The notes under the pieces are model-generated. The model was not told the DNA's origin. It was given only the letters and a program-made list of their open reading frames with translations, and made no database searches. Shown here piece by piece: positions 1-56,748 of a stretch of 64,000 nt of DNA (position 1 is its first letter; every line of letters starts with the position of its first letter). Made by a program: the position numbers and the translations under genes. Source of the stretch: Ginglymostoma cirratum (Eukaryota); NCBI GenBank assembly GCA_024137785.1, contig JAHRHZ010000048.1, forward strand, positions 10,582,661-10,646,660, written 5' to 3'.

Positions 1-1644
1 TCTTCAAGTTCCACATGTAACGGATCGTACCCTATCATGTTGATTTCTAAAACTCCAGAGCGCAAGAATTCGCTCCCAAACAGCACAGGGGTCCCACAAT
101 AATATTGATCAGAAGTCATGCTGCGTTTAGAATCTGCCCTGTCAGTCTAGAAACGCGGTGATTTTCAAACTTTTTAAGTGAAGGAAACTGGCCTGATATA
201 AAATAATTCACAAAAGGACAAAGTTATTGCCTCCGGCACATCTCCAGCCTGTTGCCTGCACCGGCTCCTACCCAAATAGGAACCGATTAGAATTCAAGCC
301 TGTTAGCAGCTTTCGTAACCTTTCCCATGAAAGATTTGACGTGTTGTTTTTAGATAATATTTCTCTGATGGAAATCCACTTCTTGTTCAGTGGGTAACAT
401 CACGAAATCAGCACCGGAAGACTGCAAGAATTATCATGCGCACTTACACGTCCTCAATTTCCCCTCTGGGTATTCCACACCTCCCAATAGGTACAGGTGT
501 GTTAAATGTCAAGGGCAATTTGGAACTTCACAAAGTATAACATTAACTCTTACTGCTTCTCCGACAGTTCTACTTGTGCATTTTCCCTTCAGTCAAATTG
601 CCAATTACACCTTACAGACAAGTACAAAACCTGAATCGCTTTCAGAAACAATGGTTTCAAAACAATAAAGGGGCTTAAAGGATAATGAATGGCAATTCTG
701 TGAATCGAGGCTGCGAACATCAACTGCACTTTTATATCTTTTTCGCTTTTTTGTTCCTCATTTCATTTCAAGCACGTCTTATTTCTGCTGTTGTGGAGGG
801 GAAAGATTGTCCACTTTCCCGCTTTAATTTGTATTTAAATCGCATCAACCATTGCGACTACTGTTGTTAGAAACTAGAATTGGATCATCCTCGTCTTTAA
901 CCTTACAAACTCTTGACAATACACAAACTCGCTTCAGTCTTGGGTGAATGTCAGTTGACCGCACTGACATTTCAATCAAAGATTTGCAGTTGGTGAATAT
1001 TCATGCGGTGCAGTTAGCGTTGAAACTGCTCCAACTCTTGAAGTTTTACCTCACAGTTAGCATATTGCTGACATTATTCACATAAACCTGTTAGCATTTG
1101 TTGGCTCGTCATAATTTTGTTAATGTAAGTGTTACAACAATTGATCGATGGAAACTTCGGGCTGAGAAGATTGCATCTTGTATTGAAATTTCCTTGGATG
1201 TACGTCATCTCCGCAAGACGTAACTTAAGATTCTGTTTAATTGTTGCACTCAATTTATAGTGCTACACCATCAATTGTTCATCTAAGATTTGCCAATCTA
1301 TCGCGCTGTTGTGTTTAAAAACTATGTAACTATGTGGAATGATGCTTACTCCAAGGCCATTGTCCATCCACCCTGCCCTACTCAGACTTCATGGTCTCCT
1401 ATTCCCGCCAAACTCTGCTGGAAATGACCAGACTCTTCTAGCCAACCAAACAATTAGCGTCGGTATCCGTTTCCCCCCAATGATGAACAAGGTGTAGAGC
1501 CTATGGACACCCCAATACCTGTTTTTATTCTAACGCTAAATGCAAGTTGAGTCAAATCTCATGTCCCGCTATGAAACTGCAAGTGCTAAGAGCCTCCTCG
1601 ACAAGCAACCCCAACCCCCCATCCCCATCCCCAATCACGCATCC

Positions 1645-1767
1645 ATCTACGGGTTCTGACGAAGGGCGAGTGGACCCGAAACGTTAACTCTGATTTCTCT
1701 CCACAGATGCTGCCAGACCTGCTGAGCTTTTCCAGCAATTTCTGTTTTTGTATCGATCTACGGGTTC
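1645..1767 (+). mobile_element. Short Penelope-like element (PLE) 3'/pLTR fragment with 12-bp direct repeats
   Basis: ctgacgaagggcgagtggacccgaaacgttaactctg...gatgctgccagacctgctgagcttttccagc resembles shark PLE ends. Flanked by atctacgggttc at 1645-1656 and 1756-1767. Confidence 0.8.
1651..1690 (+). ncRNA. Minimal type-I hammerhead ribozyme motif
   Basis: GGGUU (helix I) - CUGACGA - A - GGG/CCC (helix II) - GAA - ACGU (palindromic helix III) - U - AACUC (helix I'). Matches the minimal hammerheads described in PLE terminal repeats. Confidence 0.65.
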
Positions 1768-4700
1768 CGTTCAATGGCTAGATTTCAGTTTAAACCTAAA
1801 ACGTTCTAAAGCAGTTTGGAGAAGGCAGATGTGATGCTTTTTACTTCTATACTATAACCCTAAATGACATTTCCTCCTGTTAGCTTGGGTTCAACTGTGT
1901 CAAATAAGCAGAAGGGAAATGATGCAATGAAGCAGAAAAGTTACTATATAAGTTACATTTTTGTTTGCACGTGTCCCATTGAACTATCAGTCTTCAGCGA
2001 TGAGCCATTTATTTCATTTGCTTTACTGAGGGAGAATGCACAGTTGCCCCTCTCTTCTTGTTGTTGGGGTTATGTTAATTATCTTAGTTTTCTGGTCTTT
2101 CTCGTCTGCCCGTGATCACTCTCAGAGGCATTTATTGTGGTTTTGATTGCTTCACTTTTATGTTCAATCTCATAAAGTTATGAAACTTTGCACCACGCTC
2201 CCTACTAGTTATTGATTATCTTCTTTGTCCACGTTATAGGAAATATTAACCAGGGAGAGATTTTCTGTTTACTTCAAAAAGCGAGATGCCTTTTACCTCT
2301 GCTTGCTGATCAGATCAACTTGAACATGATAGAAATGTAGATCATCTTGATTGCTCCTTCGTCTGAGGTTGGAGTTAAGCTGCAACAAGTACAATGTCTA
2401 ATTAGTGCGAGACTAGGCCCTGGAGATAGACTAATGCAACTTTTGTACAGCCAAGGCGTTCTCAAGTCTTAGGAGTAGTTTGTTCAGTCGATACACTGGT
2501 CCAAATGATGAAAATTGCTATAATATCTAAATGTGACGCGGTCATGGCACTCTAAGGTTGGGATTGGATAAACAAGACGATATCCTTATAAGTTGTTAGT
2601 TTCTTTAATGCATAAATGCCGTTTAAGTGCATAATTTATTTTCCACTCCCTGAGAAATTCCAACATCATTACTTTTGGAACAAAACTTTCTTCTAAAGAA
2701 GCATTCGCTTTAAAGGAAAGCGGCATTTCTGGCATTTGGTTCGTAGTTTGTATAAAGTTGAATATCCCTCAAAGTTACCAATGAATGACAATAACTGAAA
2801 CCTTTTGTGAGGGCTCATACGTACGCATTATTACATCTGATTCACCTTAAGATATAATGTCAACCCCATTACAACGTATTAGGGTAATTCAACAACACTG
2901 ATCCGAAATACATCAATAGGTGAAAGTAAAAGAGTGAAAGATTTCAAATAGTATGCCCTTATTTCGATTGGAGGACGCTGGAATGAATATTTAACTATTA
3001 GCATCTACGAGGTGGTACATGCTGATATACACTAACAGAGACTATGCACCCTGTAAAATGTATTGACAAAATAACTTTGCGATATTCATTTGACGGTACT
3101 AGCCATGCCGGAAACTTAGTAGTGTTAATGTACAGTGATAAAATTGCTACCTGCTAGTCTGAGTACAGAGCACTTTCTTTCCGAGGTGAATTTGAGTGAA
3201 CTGATATCACCGAGGTTACACAAGATGAATACGCCCCGTTAGCTTCGGCCTCACAGGTTTGATTGGCTGTGTTTTGTATATAAGAGCGAGTGAGACAGGC
3301 CGATTTGTTGTTTTTCTCTCCAGCAGGCTGTTTATTCTTTGAACGCCAAAGCTGTATATTTTGTGCGTGAAATTTTATCGAAATATCAAGTGTACTTCAT
3401 AAGAATAACTTATTGTATAAATGGTTGAGTGCAGGCTATCCTGCACTGTCGAGCACGTGCAGTGCAAACGCTTTTCTTCCTGAACGTGGAGCCTCTTGCT
3501 GATTAATAGCGAGCAGCTAAAGGCAGCCAGGCGTGAGACTATTAGAAAAAAATTAAACAGCTTGTGGTAGAGGTTCGCCACAGACAACACAACTAGGATA
3601 CTGGGCAATAATTTAATGGTAATGTCAGCTACAAAAAACTGGTCATCAATCAGGACAGAGCTTTATCTCTGGCCCCCTTCTATCTTACTTTCCTCAGACT
3701 CACACTTTCTCTCCTCTGTCAACTCTTGGCCTCCCCTCCATTTTTGCTTATTGCATAAATTGTTTGTCACTCTTGCTTTCTTTTTTTCTTGTTCATTGGG
3801 CTACATTTTTAAACCAATTTTTTTCTTCAGCTTTTTGCATCTGGTGGGTTTACAATAATTCATTCTTTACTTAGCCGTTCTGTACTAATGCTGGTGTCCA
3901 ATGCTCCTTGGTCCTATCTCTTACTCTCGGTCGCTACGTACCTTACATCGCTTTAGTTCAACATACCTTTATTACCCCCACGCCTTTTACCTCATCTTAT
4001 CCTTATTTCTTTTAATCTGTGTTTCATTTTCCATCAATATTGATGTCATTTTTAAACAAAATGTCCATGTGAGCTAAGTGGCTTTTGCCATACATGGGAG
4101 AGTATACATTTAATTACAGTTTTATTGATATACAAAATTACAAACAAAGCAACTAATAAATCTATTGAAAGGGAGTTTCTGGGAAGTCCTCGCTCTTTTA
4201 TCTATTAAATCTGCAACTCGGTTACAATACCATGTTGCCACATGAAATGTTACAAAAAGAGACATTCGATTCCATCCCCCAACATCAACCTCTCCCCCGC
4301 TCCCCTACCCACGCCCCACGCCCCCCACCCCCCACCCCGGCCAACTTATTTGACTTGTGGTCCAGTACTAATTAAGACAGTGAATCTCGTTTCTTGCCTT
4401 TTCCCAAAACGCGTCGTTAGTTTGTTTGGTGAAGAAAACGCCCACGTGTATTTGTGAAGCTGGATTAAATCCTTCATATCTGTAATGCCCCGCACAATAA
4501 GTCATTAAGGTTTCAATAGCGATAGATCTCCATCACAAATAGTGATGTATGAAAGATTAACCGACGCCCCAAAATTCAATGTCTCCGCAATGATACTTTT
4601 ACACGAAATTTGGTAGTTGGAGAATGATAAAACTAATGGCAAATTGCAATGCTTTAATGGGATATTGACGTCCCTTTTATAGACTATTGCTGATTGCCTG

Positions 4701-6929
4701 GCTTCAAACTTTTTTTCCTCAGCGAAATTACTGCCGATGGTTATCATAGAGCCAACTATTTTCGTTAACATTAGCAAATGATAGTATCTGATTTGATAGC
4801 TTCGAGCTGCAGGCATTGTAAGATTTCCAACTGATAATTGTCTTTTCATTACAATGTGCTATTAATTTTGCAAGTTGGCAGAGGACATCCATTTTTAATA
4901 TTCCGGATATAATTATTTGGCTAATTCACTTTTGCATCAAACCTTTCTTGCAGCATCTTCTAGCATGTGACGTCATTGATGCAGCCGGCAGAATGCTGCT
5001 TGAAAACAAAGATGTTGCTTTCAACGTCACTGGCTATGACTTGTTTAGAACTGTACTGGATGTCCTGTGTTCCCCTCTGATAGCAGACCCTTTTCCTCAG
5101 CGTGTGGACCCTTTTCTTTTCAAAAAAGAATGCACGAGTGTGGATGGAAACTGCGGGGCTACTCTCGCAAGCAACTCGTGCTCAGAAAAAAAGAAAATAC
5201 TCATTCGGCATTTATTTCGGACCACCACTTAATTTGATTCCCAATTTTCGCTAACTCCGGCTTTGATGGTCGAGAGGTAACAAGACAGACAGCAAGTTCC
5301 TCTTTTCTCAGCGAGACCCGTCATACCAGCGATCACAGACGTGTCAGAACAGTGCTTTCCAAATTCACTCACCCTACAAGACATCTCTGTGCATCAAAAT
5401 GCAGCCCAGCTACAGACCTCAATTTTTTGATTATGAATCCACTGATCTTGTTTTGAAATGCGAATCAGTAAGCCTATAAGCCTTCAAACGTGTGAAATTT
5501 TGAAAGATCTCAAGAAGCAATCTCCGACTGCCTGACCCCTGACAATCAGTCTCTTCTGCCTGTCTCTCTCTCTCCTCTCTCTGTCTGTCTGTCTCTCCCC
5601 GGCAGTGCTTCCTTCGCTACAAAATCTGTTAGACTTGCGTGTACATTGAACATCCATAGATGGTCGTTCCTGGTCTTAGCAAATCTTCATCGTTGCACAA
5701 ATTTAGGATCTGTCAACTAAATCATTATGTAACTTGAAATTCGTGGGCATTCTATCACGCAATTGAAAGTAAACATTCTAAAATATCGCCTTAGCCATTT
5801 GATTTTACTTCCATCGCGTCTAAGTAAGGTGGGATTAAATCACTTGCTGTCAGGGAAGTTCCGTAGGGCAGGTCAATCAGTTCAGTTGCAGAGTGAGTCT
5901 CTTGTCAATTTTAAACAGTATCACGTGGTCCAAAAACATAATTCTGACATGCTAACTAAACATGACAAATAATATTAAACCCCGTTAAATAAATGTTGTT
6001 CAATAAGTTTTTTTCTCTTAAAAGTTAAATATTTAAATAATGCTACCAATTCAGTCAACTTGTCTTCGTCAATAAAGGCACCTGCTGCAGAGTCCTCTCT
6101 CTGAATTGCAAAATCTGCTATGTAACTACCTGCTACGTTTTCGTTAAAATTCTAATCAATGAAACGCTGAAGCATACTCTACAGAGGCCGTATAAATCTT
6201 TCCTTAAGGGAAAAAAAGGACGTTGAAACAGTAAAATGGAAAATCGATCACGAAGTATTTCAAGTGAGCCCACGTCTGTGCTTATTTGTCGCAGTTTAGA
6301 TAATAATTACAAAACCTTTTAAAATACTGGATTTTTTTTATCCATCTCCCTGTACAAAGCCAATACGCTATAGTTGCTTTTTCCATGTGTCAGCTTGTCG
6401 GGTTGCATTTAACACGTTAGCCTTTGTTTTTTTTTGCCTTGATGATGAAAGAAAGTTCTACCAAGTAATCAGTGATTTGCAGCCATATTTCTGTTGGATG
6501 TCATAGTTCTCCTTTGATTTTTTGATTATCGGTTCCTCAAATTTTGTGCAAATGCAACTAATTCAGTCTCAGCTGTCAGTCCATTTTACAAGGCGCTTGT
6601 CAATGTCCCGTCAGGCCAGAAAGGGACATAGATTTCACTAATCACTCACAGCTATCAATAACTGTCATGAAATCAAAATAAGCAGGGGTTGCTCTCAGAT
6701 GCATATTTGGACAGACTGAGATAGTGCATTCGGTATGAACTTTAAATTAAAGCAGACAGGTTGAGAATCGGTACCTTCACTGTAGCCTGCAACTTTGCAG
6801 GTAGATGTGTTGTAGGGTTCTATGTGAATGCAATCAGTAAGCCCCGCACCACTCCCCACCCACATCCCCCCCGAACCATGAGCCCCACGGCACCCCGCCA
6901 CCATCACTATCCCCTCCCACCCAACCCCA

Positions 6930-27433: not shown

Positions 27434-27757
<324 letters not shown>

Positions 27758-29069
27758 TTAGAAAAAAAGTGTAGGATTAAATAAATTACACCCATACTTG
27801 CATAGGACCTTTAATTAGAGAGCATAGGTTATGACCTGACCTAACCATTGCATCTTGCAATGCTCTAAACCCAGCCCAATAGACGCATATTATTATAGGC
27901 ATCAAAGCAAAACACAAAGCACAGATACAGCAACCATTCACAACCACATTTTACATAATACTTTTGGGTTTTCTAAACTTAAACCAGATTTGGACCATCT
28001 CCGGCGAGCAACGTTATACATCTATGCGTATATATTTTTCTCCCGATAGCGTGTTACAGCAAAGTGCTCACAAAACAGTGAGTTTGCTTCACTGCACACA
28101 AGGCCTGACATTTTACAAATAGTAATAAATTAACTGCTATGGTAATGTCATCGATTGCTCTTGGTTGAGTAGGATCAAGTAGACTGAACAAACAAAATAA
28201 AACCGCACAACATTTAAAAGTATTTCCAAGTCGGTTAGTAATTCAAGTATAAAAAAAAGACTAAAAAAATACTACTTCATAAAAACTGGCATGTGATAAC
28301 TTAAAGCAAACACACAACACGTCACCCCCACTTAAACTCAATCGCTCGGATTTTTCCCACTAACAAAATGTTCGCTTCTAATTTGATGAGTTTTTTTTTA
28401 TTTTTGAAAAAGGACGTGATGGAAAAGCATCTCCTTTTTTTAATGTGTGAAGTAATAATATAGAAAAGGAAGCTTGGGTCACGACCTAAGCATTGGAAGG
28501 GGTCCAGGGAGTCCTCTGGATACCCAGATCACCCTAAGACAACAAGGAAAGGATTGTGAACCTTTTTCCCACATAAACTGAAAATTTCTGTTTCCTGATA
28601 TCAACCCCTGAAAGCTTTATACTCAGCCCAGATGAGTGATTGCGCTACTGTTGCAACTTAACTGCAGCAATTCTGCACACAATGTGAGGGACATTCGACT
28701 GAGCATATAATGTTTGTAAACTGACAAAATACAGCTATATTTTAATCGCTCCCAGATTTTCATTTGCCCGTAGTTTTATATAAATATTGTGATAGGTATG
28801 TAAAATGTGCAGTAACTGCCTTTGAGAAAATCATCACTAGTGGATAAACGTATTTTTCAATAAATATTTTCATCATATTTTAAAACTGACATTGTACTAA
28901 AATATAAAAGCGTTCTAGCCCCGTCTATTTTAATATAGAGGTTATAGAAAGGATACATGACATTACATTTAGATGAGAGCTGAGTATACGACTGCATGCT
29001 CATTCAGATCTGATATCATGGCTGTTCTGATTACAGATCAGCCATATTCTGGAATTAATATCTGCCTAC

Positions 29070-29597
29070 CTGAAGTGAAGAGAACGATAGCCTTTAAGCA
29101 GCTGTACTCTGCCGAGTCGACATGCAAAGCTTTGAGTTTCTCGACCTGCTCCTGGAAGATCCTTATGTGATCCATGAAAGCAACGACCCTGTCTGCAGAC
29201 ATAGGAGACGCGTGCAGCCCAGCGGCGGCCAAGAGAGGAGCCACATGAAGAGGCATGGAGCACTGGGCAGCGTTCAGAACAAACAACTCACTCCAGGTCA
29301 GCCTCAGCAGGGCTACCTGGTCCGTGATCTGCAGATCCGGGAAGAAAGGAATATTCCTCGCCCATTCCACGGCGCTGAAGAGCAGCCGAGCAGCCAGTTC
29401 ACAAATGTTCTCAATGCCCATGATATTGTTCGGTTGCATGCACTGACTGCCGTAGCGGGAGGTCGGGTAGGGCTCGGCCCGCAGTAACAGGGAGATATAT
29501 CCCGATAAATAGGAATGGCAGTTGAGTGGATCTCCGTTTGTCAAGGCGAACTGGCCTGGAGTCGGTTGTGTAGGTGGCATTCTTCCCCTTTGGACTG
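29070..29597 (-). CDS. NR2F2: NR2F2 coding exon 2 (hinge and most of the ligand-binding domain)
   Basis: Acceptor ...cactgcag|CAGTCCAAAGG gives (A)[49 protein letters not shown]...IVLFTS. Donor TCAG|GTAGGC. Length 528 nt. The [14 protein letters not shown] string and MAMVVSTW start fit NR2F2 rather than NR2F1. Confidence 0.98.
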
Positions 29598-30316
29598 CTG
29601 CAGTGCGAAAAGAATAGACTACAGATATTGAAACCTGAATCTTACCACATTTTCAGACAGTTTGCATACAATACACACCCCTAACCATTTACAAACAACA
29701 AAAGCTGGTGCAAACACGATAATTTTTGTTTTAATTCCCACCGACTGTACAACATGTTTTAAAGCTAGACTGCATATTTTAAGCCGAGAACTGCTATGCT
29801 ATTTTACTATGTCATTTCCCTAAAACATGCAAAAACTGATTATTTTACAACAATGGCTGATTTATTTTCCTAGCTGAACTTTACTCAGCAAACTGCTCCA
29901 ACTTGCACCGTGCATTCTCAACACTCTCCCCTCTTTTCTTGAGAAGTTTCATGTGTAGCATAACAGATTTTTCAAATTAGATTGCAATCAAAGCACACTT
30001 TCTACGGTTAGTCCTGATCTGACTATTTTCAAACATACACACACATAGGCTCTCCCTCTCTCTCAAACACACACACACAGACAGTGACATCAAGGAAAAA
30101 AAAATAACACTTATAAGACTTTCTCGACCCCAAGCACCCTGCGAAGTACAGAGAGGTGATAGCAATTGATTTCAACTAGTATTCAACAACACAGAGCAAC
30201 TTTATAGAATGGAAGTGAGAGCTTTTTGCTGCTGGGTGGGGTGGGGTGGAGGGGGTTGGGAAGTAAGGGGCTGGCTATGGTAGCTCAAACATTTTAAATA
30301 AATGAATTCTCAATAC

Positions 30317-30737
30317 CTTCCCGTCTCATGCCGACTTTGAGGCATTTTTTCAGGCGACAGTACTGACACTGATTGCGGTGGTGTTGGTCTATGGGGCAGT
30401 TCCTGTTGGCACGACATGTGTACGTCAAGTTTCTGCGCACACTTCTCTTAAAGAAACTCTTACAACCCTCGCAGGTGAACTGGCCGTAATGCTTGCCGCT
30501 CGATTTGTCTCCGCACACCACACACTCGATATGCTGCTGCTGCTTCTCGCCTTGTTGCTGGCTCTGTTGGTTGGGCTGGGCCGGGGTTCCCGGGGCTCCC
30601 GGCTGGCCTGGGGTCTGCGGGGTAAGGGGTGCTCCAGAAGGCGGCTGCGGTCCTTGCTGAGGAGGGGGTGGCTGTGTGCCCTGCGCTCCGGCCACGTCGT
30701 CTTGCGGGTCTCGCCACGTACTGACTACCATTGCCAT
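30317..30737 (-). CDS. NR2F2: NR2F2/COUP-TFII coding exon 1 (Pro/Gln-rich A/B region and both C4 zinc fingers of the DNA-binding domain)
   Basis: Translates as [17 protein letters not shown]...[72 protein letters not shown]. Start context gatATGG. Phase-1 donor GAAG|GTATTG at 30317/30316. Length 421 nt. Confidence 0.98.
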
Positions 30738-31395
30738 ATCTCGGGCAGAGTGTTATCAGACAAAAAAAATGTCTTGTCTTTTGAATCGGCAGATGAGGTG
30801 GTGTTGGGTGGGGGGGGGGGGGGTTGGAGGAAGAATGAAGAAAGAAGAGTCGATTAGCTGACAACAACGGAAAAAAAATAGAGGGAGGGAGAGAGAGAGA
30901 AAGAGAGAGAGAGAGTAGCAGTTCAAACCCGATCGGCAGAGAAGAAGCGAATGTCGGGGGGCCAGGACCAGGGAAGCACGCAGTCAGCCATTCAGGAAAC
31001 CCATAAAAAAAGGACGAAGGGGGATGAAAGGTTAAAGATTAAAAAACAAAAAGAGAGAGAGAGAATCGACTCTTGAAGGCAGATGTACGATCCGGAGTAG
31101 AAGTGCCCGAACATCAACTGATCATAAATTCTCCGCCGTACTGGTAGTGGTAGAACTGCACACACATACACGCGAAGAGAGTCAACAACTCGCCAGCAAA
31201 AAGAGAGAGAGAGAGAGAGAGAGACTACAAAAAAAAAGGAGTCGACGTCGTGGAAAAAAAAAGGAGCTATAGAACCTCTCTCATGCGAGAGGAGGCAAAA
31301 TAAGGGAAGAGAGAGAGAATCAAACTGATCAAATATGCAAAAGGGGGTTGGAAGTGAATCCGATTTGAACGAGCGGGCTTGCGGAGTAATTTTTC
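30738..31395 (-). other. Long 5'UTR of NR2F2 with (CT)n/(T)n tracts and several uORFs
   Basis: Lies between the inferred TSS (about 30 nt downstream of the TATA box) and the start codon. GA repeats on + at about 30882-30915 and 31202-31224. TSS position is inferred. Confidence 0.7.
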
Positions 31396-38800: not shown

Positions 38801-39097
38801 AAGTGCGTTCACCCTCACCTTCCAGGAACCCAAGAAAATATCCCACACTCCAAGCGCAGGACGGGGCCCCTTTGACCCCAGGCCTCACGTGCTGCCCTGA
38901 TTAACCCATACCGGCCCAGGATCTAGAAAAGGTTAACCAGGCTAATGAACACGTAAAACAAATCGGATGGAGTCTGAAGGCGAGGCGGAAAGGTGCAAAA
39001 TAGACAAGAATGTTGATAAGAACTCCCTGATGCTTTTCGTTCGCTAGAGAGTAGAGGATTAGAATTGTTCCCTTGTGATAAACTTCTCTAAGGTATG

Positions 39098-39194
39098 AGA
39101 GATAACAAGCATGGGGCTGGATGAGCACAGCAGGTCAAGCAGCATCATAGGAGCAGGAAAACTTGACGTTTCGGGCCTAAACCCTTCATCAGAA
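39098..39194 (-). mobile_element. PLE terminal-repeat fragment containing a hammerhead core
   Basis: Minus strand reads tCTGATGAagggtttaggcccGAAACGTCaagttttcctgctcctatgatgctgcttgacctgctgtgctcatccagc...ttatctc. Same family as the copies at 56.6 and 58.6 kb. Confidence 0.8.
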
Positions 39195-40789
39195 TATGGT
39201 TCAATGTGAAACTATCAGAAAGGAGAAGGAATAAATGGTCAGGTTAGCTTCAAACTGCATAGCGATTGGGGTAATCAGAATTTCAGAAACAGTTCACTCT
39301 GTTTAGGTTCTTGTAAAATTCCAGGTTAGTAATTTTGTTTTGTTTTTAATTTTGGCTATTTTTATAATCATTTTTATAAGTTCAACGCGACTTTCCAGAT
39401 AGACTGTGCACAGATTATGTTACAGAATCCGCACATTTTGCGACCCAAGGCACAAATGATAATTGGCAACACGTGTAGACTCCTTCATTCAAGTCCACAT
39501 TGAACATCTTCTTTGGCCGATCAGACTTGCGACGCAGTTTACATCCACTTACGTCGCACCATAAATGATGTTGAAAGGCAGCGTGGAGTTGCGATCGATA
39601 CACACAGACCCAAGAAACAAACAATAAACAGAAGCTGTCAACAGGGGCTGACAGAAAGATGATTTGCGACGAAAAAAAGTGGAAGTTTGGTTAACAAACT
39701 GATGGACGTTAAGATATGCTCTCAATACAGAGTTAGAAACGGAGAGCTAATGTAAATGAATAAAGTAAATTGTGTGCTGAATGTTCCTGTCTGGGAAATG
39801 AGAACAAGCATGTTTATTTAGAGCTGCGAGAATTGACTTTTTTTTAGAGAAATGAAAACTTTTTTTAAAAGAAAACTTTGTATATAACTTTGGAAGTTGC
39901 TTTCAGACTGCTGCAGACACGATTTGTGTTACCGATGTAAACCAATTTGTCACTGTCCGCTTTAATTATTGGGGAAACGCCAGGGTTCAGCAGCCTTTCC
40001 ACTTAATATATTGTTTAAAGGTTTCACTCGCCTGCCTGGATAGCCTTTCACCACATCACTTCACCCATCTCCTGATCTCGGCCGTCTCTCACGTAAAGTT
40101 TTCTGAGCCCAAGTTTGTTCTAAATGTGGGATCAAACCTCAATGAAGCATTTATAGCAAATGATTAGACTATCCTCACGCCAACAACCCCATGCCCCCCA
40201 ATCGCAACAAGACCATCGTTAATACAAATACGAAATTAGCTTTCCATCCCTCTCCCTCCTATTTATTAATCATTAGAAGTTCTCTTGTTTGCAACTGGCT
40301 CCTATTCATGTTTAAGAAAACAGTCTCTTTCGGGTAATTTTAAATAATCATGTTTATTTTGTCACGTGCTCAAGGTACGGACATATACAACCGCTTATTT
40401 GTAATTCATTTTTACCTATAATTGCCGGTTCTAGAACGGTGTCTTTTTTTTTAAACTACAGTACCATATTGTTTATTCAAGGTATAGGAAGCATGCAGTG
40501 GCCCGTTTCACCTGCTGTCTGTCTTGTCTTTCTCTGTGAACAGTCAGATCAGAGCTCGTTTTAACTTTCATTAATCAGTGAGTTGGCTGCTGCTTCAACT
40601 TTCCGGTTTCTTGTATTGTTTTTACATTTCGTCCGTGAACACTTTGTTGTTCATTTAAAGGTGCAGGTTACAGGCGCTTTCTCTACCCCCACACCACAAC
40701 CCCCCCCCCCCCCACCCCCTTCCCTTCTCTATCTGTCTCTGTGCCCTCAGGGCCAATCTGAGAACATGCAGCCAGTAGATTGCTTTCAG

Positions 40790-48807: not shown

Positions 48808-49706
48808 AGATGGCATGAACTGCAGATACTGGAGTCAGAGACAACGGGTGGCATGGTGGCTCAGTGGTTAGCACTGCTGCCTCACAGTGCTAGGGACCCA
48901 GGTTCAATTCCAGCCTTGGGCATCTGTCTGTGTGGAGTTTGCACATTCTGCGTGTCTCTGGTTTCCTCCCACAGTCCAAAGATGTGCAGGTTAGGTGGAT
49001 TGGCCATGCTAAATTGCCTGTAGTGTTCAGGGAGGTGTGGGTTAGCTGGGTTGTTGGGGGGGGTGGGATTCTCTGAGGTTCGGTGTGGACTTGTTGGGCC
49101 AAAGGGCCTGTTTCCACACTGTAGGGATTCTATGATATTCTAACATAGTGTGGAGCTGGAGGAACTCAGAGGAGCAGGAAAGTTGATGTTTTGGGTCGGG
49201 ACCCTTCTTCAAAAATGGGGAGGGGGAAGGGAGCTGTGAAATAGAGAGAGGAGGGGTGGGGCTGCAGAAGGTATGTGGGATGGTGATAGGTGAGTGCAGG
49301 TAGGGAGTGATGGGGATTGGTCAGTGAGGTGAGAGGGATGGACAGGTTGTGTCAGGTCGAGGAAGCAGGGATGAGAGGCTGGGTTGGACATGGAATGAGG
49401 CAGGGGATGGCAGATTTTAAAACTGGTGAATTCCATGTTTAAGCCATTGGGCTGTAGACTCACGAGGTGTTGCTCCTCCAGTATATGTGTGGCATCATTG
49501 TGACACTGGAGGATGCCCAGGATGGACATGTCACCCAGGGAGTGAGAGGGGGAGTTAAAATGTTTCATGACCGGAAGGTGTTGTCTTTTGTAACATACCG
49601 AATGCAGATGCTCTATGAAACAGTCTTTGAGTCTATGCTTGTTCTCACTCATATAGAGGAGCCCACATCGGGCTCGTAGACGAGCTTGATGGATGTACAG
49701 GTGAAC
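48808..49706 (-). mobile_element. Penelope-like element 3' portion with decayed GIY-YIG endonuclease, interrupted by a SINE
   Basis: ORF 49209-49652 gives ENKHRLKDCFIEHLHSV...LPVMKHFNSPSHSLGDMSILGILQC...LEEQHL..LQPNGLNMEF, the C-terminus of a PLE GIY-YIG domain. It is followed by a C-rich tract, a degenerate hammerhead box (about 49185-49212) and the pLTR/tail, which is split by the SINE at 48846-49140. Confidence 0.88.
48846..49140 (+). mobile_element. HE1-like tRNA-derived V-SINE
   Basis: A box TGGCTCAGTGG, B box GGTTCAATTCC, V-domain-like ctgtgtggagtttgcacattct, CR1-like tail gggccaaagggcctgtttccacactgtagggattctatga. Confidence 0.9.
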
Positions 49707-51727
49707 ACTTTTGTTTATTAGTTAAAAAGTTCATGTATATTGTATATTAGTTAAAAGGGGCATTTTAAAAAAACTGAGTGGGGTTGCATAAAGGCAGAAA
49801 GTTATGCATTGAACCCATCAGGAATACACCCAAATGAAGTTGGCAAATGTCTTCGTGCTTTCGTGTGTCGATACTTCCTTGATTCAGCTATTCGATTGAT
49901 GGGTAAAATATTAGTCCAGGACCAAGAACAGAGAAAAAAAAGGCATTGATGATCCTCTTAATGCCTTTTAAAATATTTTTTGGAAGAATGTCTGGGTGAC
50001 ACCAAGCAATGCAGAACTCTACAAATGCTGTTTGAGCAGTTGATCATGAAACACAAATAAATGTGGGAAAAAAGTCTATGTGCTGGTATTCGATGTAAGA
50101 TAGCATTTGGGATCAATTAGGCGAAAGGAATGTTGAAGTTTCTTGTTTACACATTCCTTCCCTTGATCTGTGGTTATAGTCACAGAACAGTCCAAGGTCT
50201 GAGGACAGAGACCAGCAAAGTCAGAAATCAATAAATCATCCCTAAATTTATAATGGACTGTAAAAAGGAAACAAAGAATTAGCTTTAAACAGTATTTAAG
50301 TTCTACCCAAAACTATTCCTGTCTAATAAATGTAACATTTGGGGAATCAGTGCAATTAATAGAGCAGTGGTTGCATTATATTAATTCTTAAAACATTAGA
50401 AGGAAAGTTTTGCAATAAAAGTTGTCCCTTAACCTCCAGTTGATCCTAATTAGAACGGGTGAAGATTTATTTTCTCTGAGTCCTCAGTAAATGGCTTTGG
50501 TCAGTATTAATTTACTTGAACTGGCTGTAAGTCCACAGCATAAAATGATTCTCAGATCTGGCATAGTTGCTTTTTTGTTAATTAGAAAGGCCATGTTGAT
50601 AAGTAGTGAAGGGGATGCAAAAGGTGTGTGTGTGTGAGTGAGAGAGAGAGAGGGAGACGGAGAGAGATCTAAGTGCTCTGGCATAACAATATGGAAGGAG
50701 CTGCTAATTACATTAAGTCCTAATTTTTACCTTTCTTGATTGTGCTTGATGCCGTTACCAGGTACAAAATGAAAACATTTTATTTCCACCATACTGTCAA
50801 TCCTCACAAATACATGAAAACACAATGTTAGAATATAGACCAACCTCTGTAACAAGATCTTGTGCACAATTTCAGAATACATAGAGATGAGTTTATGGAC
50901 TATCATATTCATGCTGAGATTATTCATATTTACTGGTAGAAAAGCAGGTCTATTAAAATGGAAAGTCCTCTAGCAAGGAAACTAATGCCCTCTTTAAAAC
51001 ATCAATTTACAGTCATATTAAAAAAAGTTTTAAAAATAAAATTTATAACCAGCAGGTTGACAATCATTAACATTGTTATGTATTCAGAGTTGAACTGTTT
51101 AGAGAACATACAAAGGGATTTTGTGGATGAGTTCAGGCATCTACAGCAGTGAGACTACAATTTATTTGATACTATTAATAATTCCTAGTCCATGACTGAC
51201 AAGGTGTGGAATATTATACAAATGTTACAAAAGAATCAAATGGCTAATAATTTAAGTAATACAGAGTATTTGCATCATGTTTCAATGATTGCTCTCAATG
51301 GTGCTGTTATATTTGTGTTGTGTTGGAAAATTATATTTTCCTTTTGCCTCCAAAGAACAAATTAATTTGAAATGCTTACCCATTGCACAATTTTTATGCA
51401 CATTAATTCAGCTCACAACTTTTCCCCACATGCTTTCCAGATTGGAATTTGATTTAAACTTTCAAACTAATTCAAAGATGGATTTTCTTGTACTTGATTT
51501 TAGAAATCTCAGGGGTCAGTTACTCAATTTTGTGACATTAAGAAATCTCTATTATCAAGAGCATTGCCCTAGCCCTGTAAAGCTACCTTGCTGTATAACT
51601 GATGGGAGAATAAAAAAAAGTTCCAATATATCAGAGGTATATATGCCACACACATATGCAAGTTGCAATTGTTGTATTCCATGATCCTTTGTACAAATTT
51701 AATTAAAATAATTGTATCGCAGCGTTT

Positions 51728-55200: not shown

Positions 55201-56549
55201 TCAATTAAATAGCCTTCCTTATCCAAAAATATATTGTGCTCATGTATGGTTTTAACTTCAATGAGCATAGAACCAATTTTATTTAAGTATGTGTCCTAAT
55301 AAAAGACCTACAATAGATTATCATGCATTTGAAAACAAACTGAATAAAAATCAGAATTAAAACTGATTAGAAGGCAATTAAAATTCACTGTATTAAAATA
55401 CTGTAGTATTAAAATTCACTGAATTGGCTAGTAATAGGAACAACCAATAATTTATGTGTTGAAGTCAAGCTGAATTTCAATGCCAGTTTAAAAATGAGTA
55501 GCTAGGGACTTAAGGGCTGGTAGATAAAGGACATTAACTGTGCAGTATGGAACAAAACTCGTATTCCTTAAAATGTCCATTACATCTGTTGGTGAGCAGT
55601 CAGCCAATCTGCCAGAATGTTAAATCATGAAACAGTACGACTTGAGATCAAACTCAAGCTTCATCACACTATAACTCATGTGACTGTGAAGCTTTTTCAG
55701 CCAAGGTCAGGGGTTAAAGGGAAAATAAGAATGAACAACTCAAGAACATGTATGCACTCCTGCAGTGGGAGTAGGTAATCTTAAAGAAAAGTGTCTCGAT
55801 TAATTGTCATCAATTGAGTTTAATTTTGCAAAATTTGAATCCACACAGGCAAGTCTTTCACAGTGGTCGTACAATATATGTGTATAAAGTTTGTGCCTTT
55901 CCCTTAACACTTAACAGCACTTTCAAACTGGTGTAAAGTTATGAGTTTAAATAAAGTTATGAGTTGTGACAGAAGAAATTTTTTTCAGGTACATCTGACT
56001 TATTTACTTCATTGTAAGGTAACAAAATCTTCAATCAGAGTTAGTCTGTCTGCCAAGATCAGTTACTTTTGGCGGGAAATTGGAAGAGCCAGAATTTGGC
56101 ATTTTCCTTGGGAGATCTCATAAAAGCAACTCATTCTTCCATGATACTTTCATGACTGTGTAATTATAATATTACATATTTAGTAAAGATAGCCAATCTG
56201 TTTGTCAAATAGACATGGAATTTTACAGAATGGCTCCGAGCCATCCAATGAGCACCCTTAAGGTTTTCAACTGGTATTGGAACTAGACTTATGAAGAAAT
56301 CACGACAGGTCTTTTGAAATTCAATGAACATTTCTGATGGTAAACAGGAACTCCCCAACAATAGGTCCCCTGGAGGTGTGAATAGTTCTGCCTTGTTCAC
56401 CACAACCTGATAACAAAAGCCATTCAAGTAATGGCTAAGACAGTTAAAAAGATTAATTATCTCAACCAGAAGACCACACATAATCTACAAACACACGACA
56501 ACAGTTTTGGGATATCAGCCATTTTAACTTTTGATCAGTATAAAACAGG

Positions 56550-56748
56550 CTATGAGTAACCATGAGATAACAAGGTGTAGAGTTGGATGAACACAGCAGG
56601 CCAAGCATTTCCGAAGAAGGGTCTAGGCCCGAAACATCAGCCTTCCTGCTCCTCTGATGCTGCTTGGCCTGCTGTGTTCATCCAGCTCTACACCTTGTTA
56701 TCTCAGATTCTCCAGCATCTGCAGTTCCTACTATCTATGAGTAACCAT
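56550..56748 (+). mobile_element. Miniature PLE insertion: inverted pLTR + pLTR + tail, with 14-bp target-site duplication
   Basis: ctatgagtaaccat at 56550-56563 and 56735-56748. 56563-56607 is the reverse complement of 56661-56705 with one mismatch. About 30-nt unpaired 3' tail. Degenerate hammerhead box ccgaagaagggtctaggcccgaaacatc. Confidence 0.9.

What the first reader, a model, noticed from the sequence alone, without database searches (positions are those of the whole stretch)
1645..1767. Intact-looking minimal hammerhead ribozyme in a ~100-bp PLE relic, with helix I completed by the target-site duplication
Seen: GGGUU-CUGACGA-A-GGGcgaguggaCCC-GAA-ACGU-U-AACUC (1651-1690). GGGUU pairs with AACUC (4 Watson-Crick pairs plus one G-U). 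Helix II is GGG/CCC, helix III is the palindrome ACGU and the cleavage triplet is GUU. The 12-mer atctacgggttc brackets the insertion (1645-1656 and 1756-1767), so the 5' strand of helix I and the first core C lie inside the duplicated target sequence. Established: PLE terminal repeats carry minimal hammerheads with palindromic helix III thought to cleave as dimers. Inference: 5' joining by microhomology rebuilt the ribozyme, and the CpG-retaining domain protected its CpG-containing core. It is one of only two TE relics I see in the first 43 kb.
Basis: partly seen in the sequence, partly recalled or inferred. Interest (0 to 1): 0.7.

Follow-up and report, generated by a model that had tools for sequence, protein, structure and literature searches.

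The report
Decayed Penelope stub with hammerhead motif
This 99-base insert is an old, ordinary stump of a very abundant Penelope-type jumping gene whose self-cutting RNA motif belongs to the family and has partly decayed here; most sister copies stop at the same spot, likely because the element's RNA starts at the motif's first base.

Summary
The hammerhead core and the 12-bp target duplication are real. The insert (1653-1751) is one of roughly 100,000 short end-fragments of a Neptune-type Penelope-like element. It was not rebuilt: GTTC are family letters, and most copies begin there anyway. It is less intact than claimed: its only 3 differences from its closest relatives cut helix II from 5 to 3 pairs, and target bases add a competing hairpin. 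Two related species carry the same insertion, so no empty site was found; CpG protection is unproven. The scan found such stubs before on other DNA, leaving open why they stop before the ribozyme. New here: that boundary lies on an initiator-like motif with a TATA-like box 31 bases upstream, in two divergent families. The stubs are likely run-off cDNAs of the uncleaved RNA's 5' end, with transcription starting at the ribozyme's first base. No RNA 5' ends were measured. Locus ordinary; family-level mechanism testable.

The parts
1645..1656 (+). Left copy of the target-site duplication (exact 12-mer; 15 of 16 from 1641)
   Evidence: duplications of 9-16 bp in 20 of 67 direct copies, 0 in shifted controls
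1653..1751 (+). Penelope-like pLTR stub, short class (no 30-40 nt tail); 3' edge may reach 1754; lacks the family's upstream TATA/initiator-like bases
   Evidence: parent element with RT and GIY-YIG-type ORF in L181
1653..1656 (+). 4-nt microhomology shared by target duplication and element 5' end (family letters)
1651..1690 (+). Minimal type-I hammerhead motif: helix I 1651-1655/1686-1690, core 1656-1662, extra A 1663, helix II 1664-1666/1675-1677, GAAA 1678-1681, palindrome 1681-1684, predicted cut after 1685
   Evidence: architecture as in PMC4209133; covariation across families
1667..1670 (+). Three substitutions against the closest relatives; two break helix II pairs 4 and 5
1650..1678 (+). 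Predicted competing 7-bp hairpin (1650-1656 with 1672-1678) that uses target-derived bases and sequesters C3, G12 and the 3' strand of helix II
   Evidence: minimum-energy fold, 4.1 kcal/mol below the hammerhead fold
1756..1767 (+). Right copy of the target-site duplication (15 of 16 from 1752)
39096..39202 (-). Second stub, of a related hammerhead family (family 2); also begins at its helix I
27434..30752 (-). Context: COUP-TF (NR2F) nuclear receptor gene, three coding exons, about 26 kb from the stub, in the CpG-rich repeat-poor domain

Best explanation
The insert is an old, passive end-fragment of a Neptune-type Penelope-like retroelement whose hammerhead motif is family-encoded and has lost two helix II pairs, and it was likely made by reverse transcription running off the 5' end of the uncleaved element RNA. 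Shown: family membership, the shared 5' boundary of most copies, two 3' end classes about 35 nt apart, 9-16 bp duplications, presence in two related species. Inferred steps: (1) the terminal repeat holds a Pol II core promoter (TATA-like box at -31, initiator TCAGTTC) that starts the RNA at the A of AGUU, the first base of helix I; (2) the element's endonuclease nicks the target with a stagger of about 12-16 bp; (3) its RT starts internally about 100 nt (this copy) or about 135 nt (tailed copies) from the RNA 5' end, as shown in vitro for the anole element (PMC11167929); (4) the cDNA runs off the RNA end and is joined to the upstream target through GTTC microhomology (here) or to a second, inverted cDNA (about half of copies); (5) the promoter is not copied, so the stub is dead on arrival and then decays at the rate of its flanks.
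For: Family: 1,061 exact intact-core 33-mers, 16,706 copies of a 23-mer; 13 copies in 383 kb of readable random DNA. Parent ORF: RVT_1 E=1.4e-6, GIY-YIG-type clusters at 0.96-0.98, C-X4-C-XX-C linker and CxxC before YIG (defining motifs per PMC8557442); the near-full copy L181 also starts about 8 nt inside the motif. Boundary: 70 of 123 start at -5..+2, 22 continue upstream, 26 start inside +3..+11, 5 at -6..-11; genome counts fall 16,706 > 9,506 (AG) > 6,606 (CAG) > 4,340 (TCAG) > 2,456 (CCATCAG). Uncleaved template: 6 of 97 copies anchored only downstream start near the cut site, 41 at the motif start. Promoter: initiator 7/7 in 39 of 41 and best TATA match at -32..-30 in about 29 of 41 upstream-continuing copies; in family 2 initiator 7/7 in 11 of 11 and a 6/8 box at -31/-30 in 10 of 11, with 29 short copies ending at the same A; it is the only such pair in 3.3 kb of L181, background 0.01-0.09% of positions; spacing as tabulated in PMC4581360. 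Old and unselected: insertion contiguous with the left flank in organisms B (29 differences in 599) and C (58 in 598); by subtraction about 2 of 37 sites in 1646-1682 differ in B, like the flanks.
Against: No RNA 5' end was observed; the promoter is a consensus match only, and the family-2 TATA match is weak (6/8, tied with -27). The boundary is ragged over about 5 nt and the C before the A is enriched (43 of 101 vs about 21% background), partly from fold-back geometry. Family 1 also has an AG and a branch-point-like word at this boundary. In D. virilis Penelope the start lies about 120 nt upstream of the motif, with an intron between (PMC2377424, PMC4209133), so the geometry is not general. 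Copies of one family are not independent, and families 1 and 2 are related. The positions of the differences in B and C inside the motif could not be read.
Confidence: 0.7

Rival explanations
1. One reading: joining by microhomology rebuilt a working ribozyme that the CpG-rich domain preserved, possibly with a role near the COUP-TF gene.
For: Core, both CpGs and palindrome are unchanged; 0 of 56 unselected copies were fully intact by the same test; target G's lengthen helix I to 5 pairs, reached by 6 of 81 short copies; old insertion kept in three species.
Against: Helix II cut to 3 pairs and a competing hairpin; no partner copy nearby for a dimer; no promoter; 0 reads on the flanks in 2,103 Mb of one RNA run and 1 read (1440-1528, none on the motif) in 1,934 Mb of another; about flank-rate change in organism B; min-HHR monomers did not cleave and dimers only weakly in PMC4209133.
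Confidence: 0.05
2. The shared 5' boundary is a 3' splice site (as in D. virilis Penelope, where the intron ends at helix I), and stubs come from spliced or mis-spliced RNA.
For: Family 1 has a pyrimidine tract, a branch-point-like word and AG right before TTCTGA; PMC4209133 reports this layout in D. virilis.
Against: No shared upstream exon: duplications or inverted copies abut the boundary; family 2 has the same boundary without any AG; family letters extend into the supposed intron (G 63, A 49 of 101).
Confidence: 0.08
3. The boundary is made after transcription or during integration: a nuclease or the element protein trims a longer RNA at helix I, or the RT falls off or folds back there.
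For: Ragged ends and many fold-back junctions centred on this base; the element protein acts on the hammerhead region in the anole element (PMC11167929); self-priming was proposed in PMC3846280.
Against: Does not explain a TATA-like box at -31 held by different sequences in two families; an RT arriving from the 3' side would stall before, not after, the helices; the hammerhead's own cut site shows no peak.
Confidence: 0.12
4. The stubs are a self-propagating non-autonomous mini-element (SINE- or retrozyme-like) with its own RNA.
For: About 100,000 copies of similar length with fixed ends; retrozymes are reported as PLE derivatives (bioRxiv 10.64898/2026.07.22.740005).
Against: Stub letters equal those of long ORF-linked copies of each subfamily; no head-to-tail arrays among the copies viewed; the stubs lack the upstream promoter-like bases; both 3' classes also occur on long copies.
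Confidence: 0.05

Closest known systems
Minimal hammerheads (min-HHR) in pLTRs of metazoan Penelope-like elements (Cervera and De la Pena 2014, PMC4209133; parts 1-2 of 4 read)
   Same: Type I, no helix III loop, palindromic 15.2-16.2, extra nucleotide after A9, G10.1-C11.1, short helix I, mostly single dispersed motifs from truncated elements.
   Different: Family helix II is 5 bp (7-8 in Schistosoma) and only 3 bp in this copy; in the parts read, no link between motif start and transcription start is made.
Poseidon element of the green anole, internal RT initiation (Frangieh et al. 2024, PMC11167929; parts 1-2 of 4 read)
   Same: Two 3' end classes 30-40 nt apart (tail); uncleaved RNA as template; initiation about 100-140 nt after the motif.
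   Different: This family is Neptune-type by its linker motif; the parts read do not describe a fixed 5' end at the motif or mass-produced short copies; here many duplications overlap the element's 3' letters by several bases.
EN+ Penelope insertion units with inverted pLTR, tail, duplication and microhomology joints (Arkhipova et al. 2013, PMC3846280; passages read)
   Same: 8-10 bp duplications, palindromic junctions, solo pLTRs, 5' microhomology, TATA plus initiator-like words in the pLTR.
   Different: Few copies there; here about 100,000, and the initiator coincides with the commonest 5' end and with helix I.
D. virilis Penelope promoter (Schostak et al. 2008, PMC2377424; passages read)
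   Same: Promoter lies in the 3' part of the upstream copy, so single copies lack it.
   Different: TATA-less, with an intron between the start and the hammerhead; here TATA-like and predicted to start at the hammerhead.
Non-LTR retrozymes (bioRxiv 10.64898/2026.07.22.740005; part 1 of 5 and passages read)
   Same: Short, non-coding, type I hammerhead, PLE-related.
   Different: Defined by tandem arrays with a motif in each unit; this copy is single, with a duplication and no tandem.

Membership tests
EN+ Penelope-like element (Neptune/Nematis type), parent of the stub | RT followed by C-terminal GIY-YIG endonuclease in one ORF region | tested here: met
   L181/L184: RVT_1 E=1.4e-6, just under the curated cut-off; endonuclease part has no Pfam hit but nearest Atlas clusters carry GIY-YIG at 13-27% of members, score 0.96-0.98; frames are broken in these copies
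EN+ Penelope-like element (Neptune/Nematis type), parent of the stub | CCHH motif in the endonuclease and CX2-5CxxC linker | tested here: met
   Read by eye in translations of L181, L183, L184; definition from PMC8557442
EN+ Penelope-like element (Neptune/Nematis type), parent of the stub | Clade placement by RT phylogeny | not tested
   No reference RT set was held; Neptune vs Nematis not resolved
EN+ Penelope-like element (Neptune/Nematis type), parent of the stub | pLTR at both ends, optional 30-40 nt tail, inverted 5' copies, variable duplications | tested here: met
   Repeat at both ends of L181; 3' ends at +95..109 in 89 and +125..144 in 77 of 181 copies; duplications in 40 of 73 inverted copies, 5 in controls
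PLE minimal hammerhead | CUGANGA, extra nucleotide, G10.1-C11.1, GAAA-N-N'-U-H with palindrome | tested here: met
PLE minimal hammerhead | Helices I and II kept by compensatory change | tested here: met
   16 natural copies of 4-5 families: 93% of cells paired, 8 of 9 pairs changed on both sides, score 0.70 vs 0.23 shuffled and at most 0.17 slid; copies were picked by a helix II filter, so this leans towards the structure
PLE minimal hammerhead | Stable helix II in this copy | tested here: not met
   3 of 5 family pairs left; pairing probability 0.51 alone, about 0 with flanks
PLE minimal hammerhead | Self-cleavage as dimer or with protein help | not testable with these tools
   needs a bench assay
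Rfam hammerhead families | Covariance-model hit | tested here: not met
   no hammerhead hit to E=10 in 1-6000; expected for loopless helix III variants (inference)
Non-LTR retrozyme | Tandem units each with a hammerhead | tested here: not met
   single copy; no second copy nearby
Host-domesticated ribozyme | Excess conservation across species and transcription on the motif's strand | tested here: inconclusive
   about 2 of 37 sites differ in B, at most 3 in C, by subtraction; positions unread; no reads on this copy in two RNA runs

The most novel reading that the evidence does not exclude
In these Neptune-type Penelope elements the transcript starts exactly at the first base of the hammerhead, set by a TATA box and an initiator that doubles as helix I. 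The roughly 100,000 short stubs per genome are then strong-stop-like cDNAs: internally primed near the RNA 5' end and run off it. The stubs would be a fossil map of the element's RNA start and priming sites, and the ribozyme's role would be to cut the 34-nt capped leader off its own RNA rather than to release the element from a longer precursor.
Probability: 0.5. Interest if true: 0.55.

Novelty: new member of a known kind. Interest (0 to 1): 0.3.

Why it matters
The locus itself matters little: it is one decayed copy among very many. The family pattern bears on an open question, what Penelope hammerheads are for (called unclear in PMC8557442) and how pLTRs, solo stubs and fold-back insertions arise. 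If the RNA starts at the ribozyme's first base, cleavage would decap the RNA instead of freeing it from a precursor, only uncleaved RNA would be copied, and single full-length copies would be born promoterless, which would explain the need for partial tandems. One CAGE or 5'-RACE data set from gonad tissue tests it.

Tried and rejected
Rfam scan: no hammerhead; the one weak snoRNA-like hit (1911-1980, E=9) was dismissed. Fold z-scores of the insert are unremarkable (-0.3 to 1.2). Empty site: not found, because both related species with usable contigs carry the insertion. No RNA holder listed in the run search; the two raw RNA runs laid gave 36 partial reads from other copies and 1 flank read, too few to show RNA ends. 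Positions of orthologue differences inside the motif could not be read: family contigs swamped them and the end filter hid them. Cap-derived extra G before the A was looked for and not seen (G in 19 of 101). Start at the ribozyme cut site rejected (6 of 97). Double-hammerhead dimer energies were 13-16 kcal/mol above the free fold for this copy and L112 and 7 for L011, so they do not discriminate well. PDB search with the RT fragment found nothing. Luense et al. 2017 is not held; it is known only through a review passage. No paper supplements were opened; those of PMC4209133 and PMC11167929 may show shark motifs or 5' ends. Literature searches for a printed link between PLE transcription start and hammerhead start, or for shark PLE hammerheads, listed nothing on it; the library lacks most subscription papers and Repbase/Dfam notes.

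Full report
1. Observation. The 12-mer duplication is exact and extends to 15 of 16 bases; chance is about 2e-4. Rfam gives no hammerhead hit. The first 44 kb have CpG o/e 0.58-0.92 against 0.13-0.32 beyond; the rich domain extends about 20 kb left of the window. It surrounds a COUP-TF (NR2F) gene on the minus strand. Against all fetched loci only two interspersed repeats lie in the first 43 kb, this one and 39096-39202; repeats absent from that sample would be missed.

2. What it belongs to. A DNA search gave 1,117 candidates, 40 scored. Exact patterns gave 1,061 copies with an intact core, 4,315 CpG-decayed ones and 16,706 for a 23-mer. Sixty evenly placed 10-kb stretches (383 of 600 kb readable) held 13 copies, about 1-1.5 x 10^5 per genome; 111-117 thousand contigs from each of three runs of related species were laid on the repeat. 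Four copies continue 1.47 kb or more upstream. L181 is a near-full 3.3-kb element with the same repeat at both ends, an RT (RVT_1, E=1.4e-6, below the curated cut-off; Atlas 0.97) and a C-terminal endonuclease-like region (no Pfam hit; Atlas clusters with GIY-YIG in 13-27% of members) with CxxC before YIG and a C-X4-C-XX-C linker, the marks of Neptune/Nematis elements in PMC8557442 (passages). Its frames are broken.

3. Was the ribozyme rebuilt? No. Upstream-continuing copies read ...CCATCAGTTCTGA, so GTTC is the family's own sequence and family helix I is AGUU/AACU (33 of 35 continuing copies have 4 pairs). The target adds two G's, which lifts helix I pairing from about 0.09 to 0.45 in the short fold, but the same bases allow a 7-bp hairpin 1650-1656/1672-1678 that is 4.1 kcal/mol more stable than the hammerhead fold. 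Among 81 short copies 32 have 4 or more helix I pairs and 6 have 5 or more. Of 20 direct copies with a clear duplication, 2 overlap the element's 5' letters as here, so the microhomology is real but not unique. The copy differs from the majority of its 29 best relatives at 3 of 99 sites, all at 1667-1670; two break helix II, leaving 3 of 5 pairs. Helix II probability is 0.51 against 0.99 or more in 4 of 4 family copies of equal length, and near zero with flanks; in the longer context helix I is also poorly formed in 3 of those 4 family copies, so the energy model is a weak guide. Across 16 natural copies of several families the structure is kept by compensatory changes in 8 of 9 pairs; these were preselected for helix II.

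4. Age, CpG protection, expression. Contigs of organism B (two individuals) run from the left flank into the stub to 1698 with 29 differences and from 1727 across the right duplication; a contig of organism C does so to 1697 with 58 differences. The insertion predates these splits; no empty site was seen. In one search the B contig has 11 differences in 1441-1682, of which 9 are placed in the flank, leaving about 2 in 1646-1682, as expected at the flank rate; C leaves at most 3. Their positions are unknown. Both core CpGs survive in 8 of 56 unselected copies (8 of 64 rows dropped for indels); the two other copies in the CpG-rich domain (L185, L186) lost the palindrome CpG, and a copy in the CpG-poor flank (L188) kept both. 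Passive protection is plausible but not shown. RNA: no flank read in 2,103 Mb of one run, one read at 1440-1528 in 1,934 Mb of another.

5. The family pattern. Numbering the G at 1653 as 0: of 123 copies not selected on their 5' end, 70 begin at -5..+2, 22 continue upstream, 26 begin at +3..+11 and 5 at -6..-11 (3 or so of the 'continuing' calls are chance matches). In the 101 non-continuing copies the family letter is present at T+2 83, T+1 72, G0 63, A-1 49, C-2 43, T-3 25 times, then at background. Genome-wide counts agree: 16,706, 9,506, 6,606, 4,340, 2,456 as the pattern is lengthened to AG, CAG, TCAG, CCATCAG. 58 of the 101 have an inverted copy upstream, often as a palindrome centred on the A. 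With an anchor only downstream of the cut site, 41 of 97 start at -6..+4, 18 continue, 6 start at +30..+36: the template was uncleaved, as found for the anole element (PMC11167929). 3' ends fall in two classes, +95..109 (89 of 181) and +125..144 (77 of 181); this copy is of the short class. Duplications of 9-19 bp were found in 20 of 67 direct and 40 of 73 inverted copies (controls 0 and 5).

6. Why there? The A at -1 is the +1 of a perfect initiator match (YYANWYY 7/7 in 39 of 41 continuing copies), and the best TATA match within -70..-9 lies at -32..-30 from it in about 29 of 41 (ties shared), the spacing given in PMC4581360 (passage; I scored the recalled variant TATAWAWR, the paper lists TATAWAAR). 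A second family in the genome, with different upstream sequence and no AG at this point, shows the same: initiator 11 of 11, a weaker 6/8 box at -31/-30 in 10 of 11, and 29 short copies whose family letters end at that A. The pair is the only one in 3,290 positions of L181 at 6/8 stringency; at 7/8 it was found in 4 of 7 family-1 copies scanned; background is 0.09% and 0.013% of 380,671 positions. In the alignment of the two families the boxes at -31 are not the same bases. The inference is that the RNA starts at the first base of helix I, RT primes internally 100 or 135 nt downstream and runs off; priming in the 3' repeat of the same RNA gives the upstream-continuing copies. The promoter is never copied with a stub. 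A splice-acceptor reading fits family 1 and D. virilis (PMC4209133) but not family 2, and no common exon is present. No RNA end was measured.

7. Comparison and novelty. Every element of the locus is described: min-HHRs as single dispersed motifs (PMC4209133, parts 1-2 of 4), tails and internal initiation (PMC11167929, parts 1-2 of 4), duplications, microhomology joints, inverted and solo pLTRs, TATA and initiator-like words (PMC3846280, passages), promoter in the upstream copy (PMC2377424, passages), dimer cleavage (review PMC6765202, passages). Earlier scan notes report the same stubs in other genomes and in this one; one leaves open why copies stop before the motif; a word search for a promoter explanation returned nothing, and my reading was written down before those notes were seen. 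Paper searches listed no report of a start site at the hammerhead, within a limited library and without supplements.

8. Verdict. Locus: new member of a known kind, passive and partly decayed (about 0.9). Run-off from a start site at helix I: about 0.6-0.7 for the boundary, 0.5 for the full novel case. Interest 0.3.

Noticed in passing
window 27434-30752 (-): COUP-TF (NR2F1/NR2F2-like) gene with three coding exons inside a CpG-rich, repeat-poor domain of about 60 kb (from about 20 kb left of the window to 44 kb), with a sharp CpG o/e step at 44 kb; paralogue not settled.
   Followed up: partly
window 39096-39202 (-); L185; L186: The few repeats found inside the CpG-rich domain are short Penelope hammerhead stubs (two in the window, two in the 20 kb to its left), perhaps the only insertions small enough to be tolerated.
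   Followed up: partly
window 1752-1763: The start of the duplication resembles the element letters that follow the 3' end (6 of 8), and in 50 copies with clear duplications the overlap with family letters was 3 or more bases in 21 (no control); hints at primer-template pairing at the internal start.
   Followed up: partly
window 1691-1709 and L181 3230-3370: Pyrimidine tract, CAG and ATG follow the motif, with a branch-point-like word over the cut site; in L181 this ATG opens a short frame and the long ORF's first ATG lies about 120 nt further on. Possible uORF or splice acceptors, untested.
   Followed up: no
L005, L048, L127, L181 (family 3); L007, L050, L133 (family 4): At least two more hammerhead-bearing repeat families in this genome, with different helix I and II sequences; family 3 has a TATA-like word about 48 nt before the core.
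   Followed up: partly
window 49042-49721 (-) and 56542-56745: Further Penelope pieces in the CpG-poor part: an endonuclease-end fragment with terminal repeat, and a fold-back stub; both lost core CpGs.
   Followed up: partly
window 1667-1670: The three clustered changes resemble the reverse complement of a family loop variant, so a single loop inversion between the helix II arms may have caused them.
   Followed up: no
window 600-2900: Several small contig sets of the same species (200-900 Mb, library type unrecorded) hold 57-95% of this intergenic stretch, which may reflect enrichment of the domain; not interpretable.
   Followed up: no
window 1911-1980: Weak snoRNA-like Rfam match (E=9), probably chance.
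   Followed up: no
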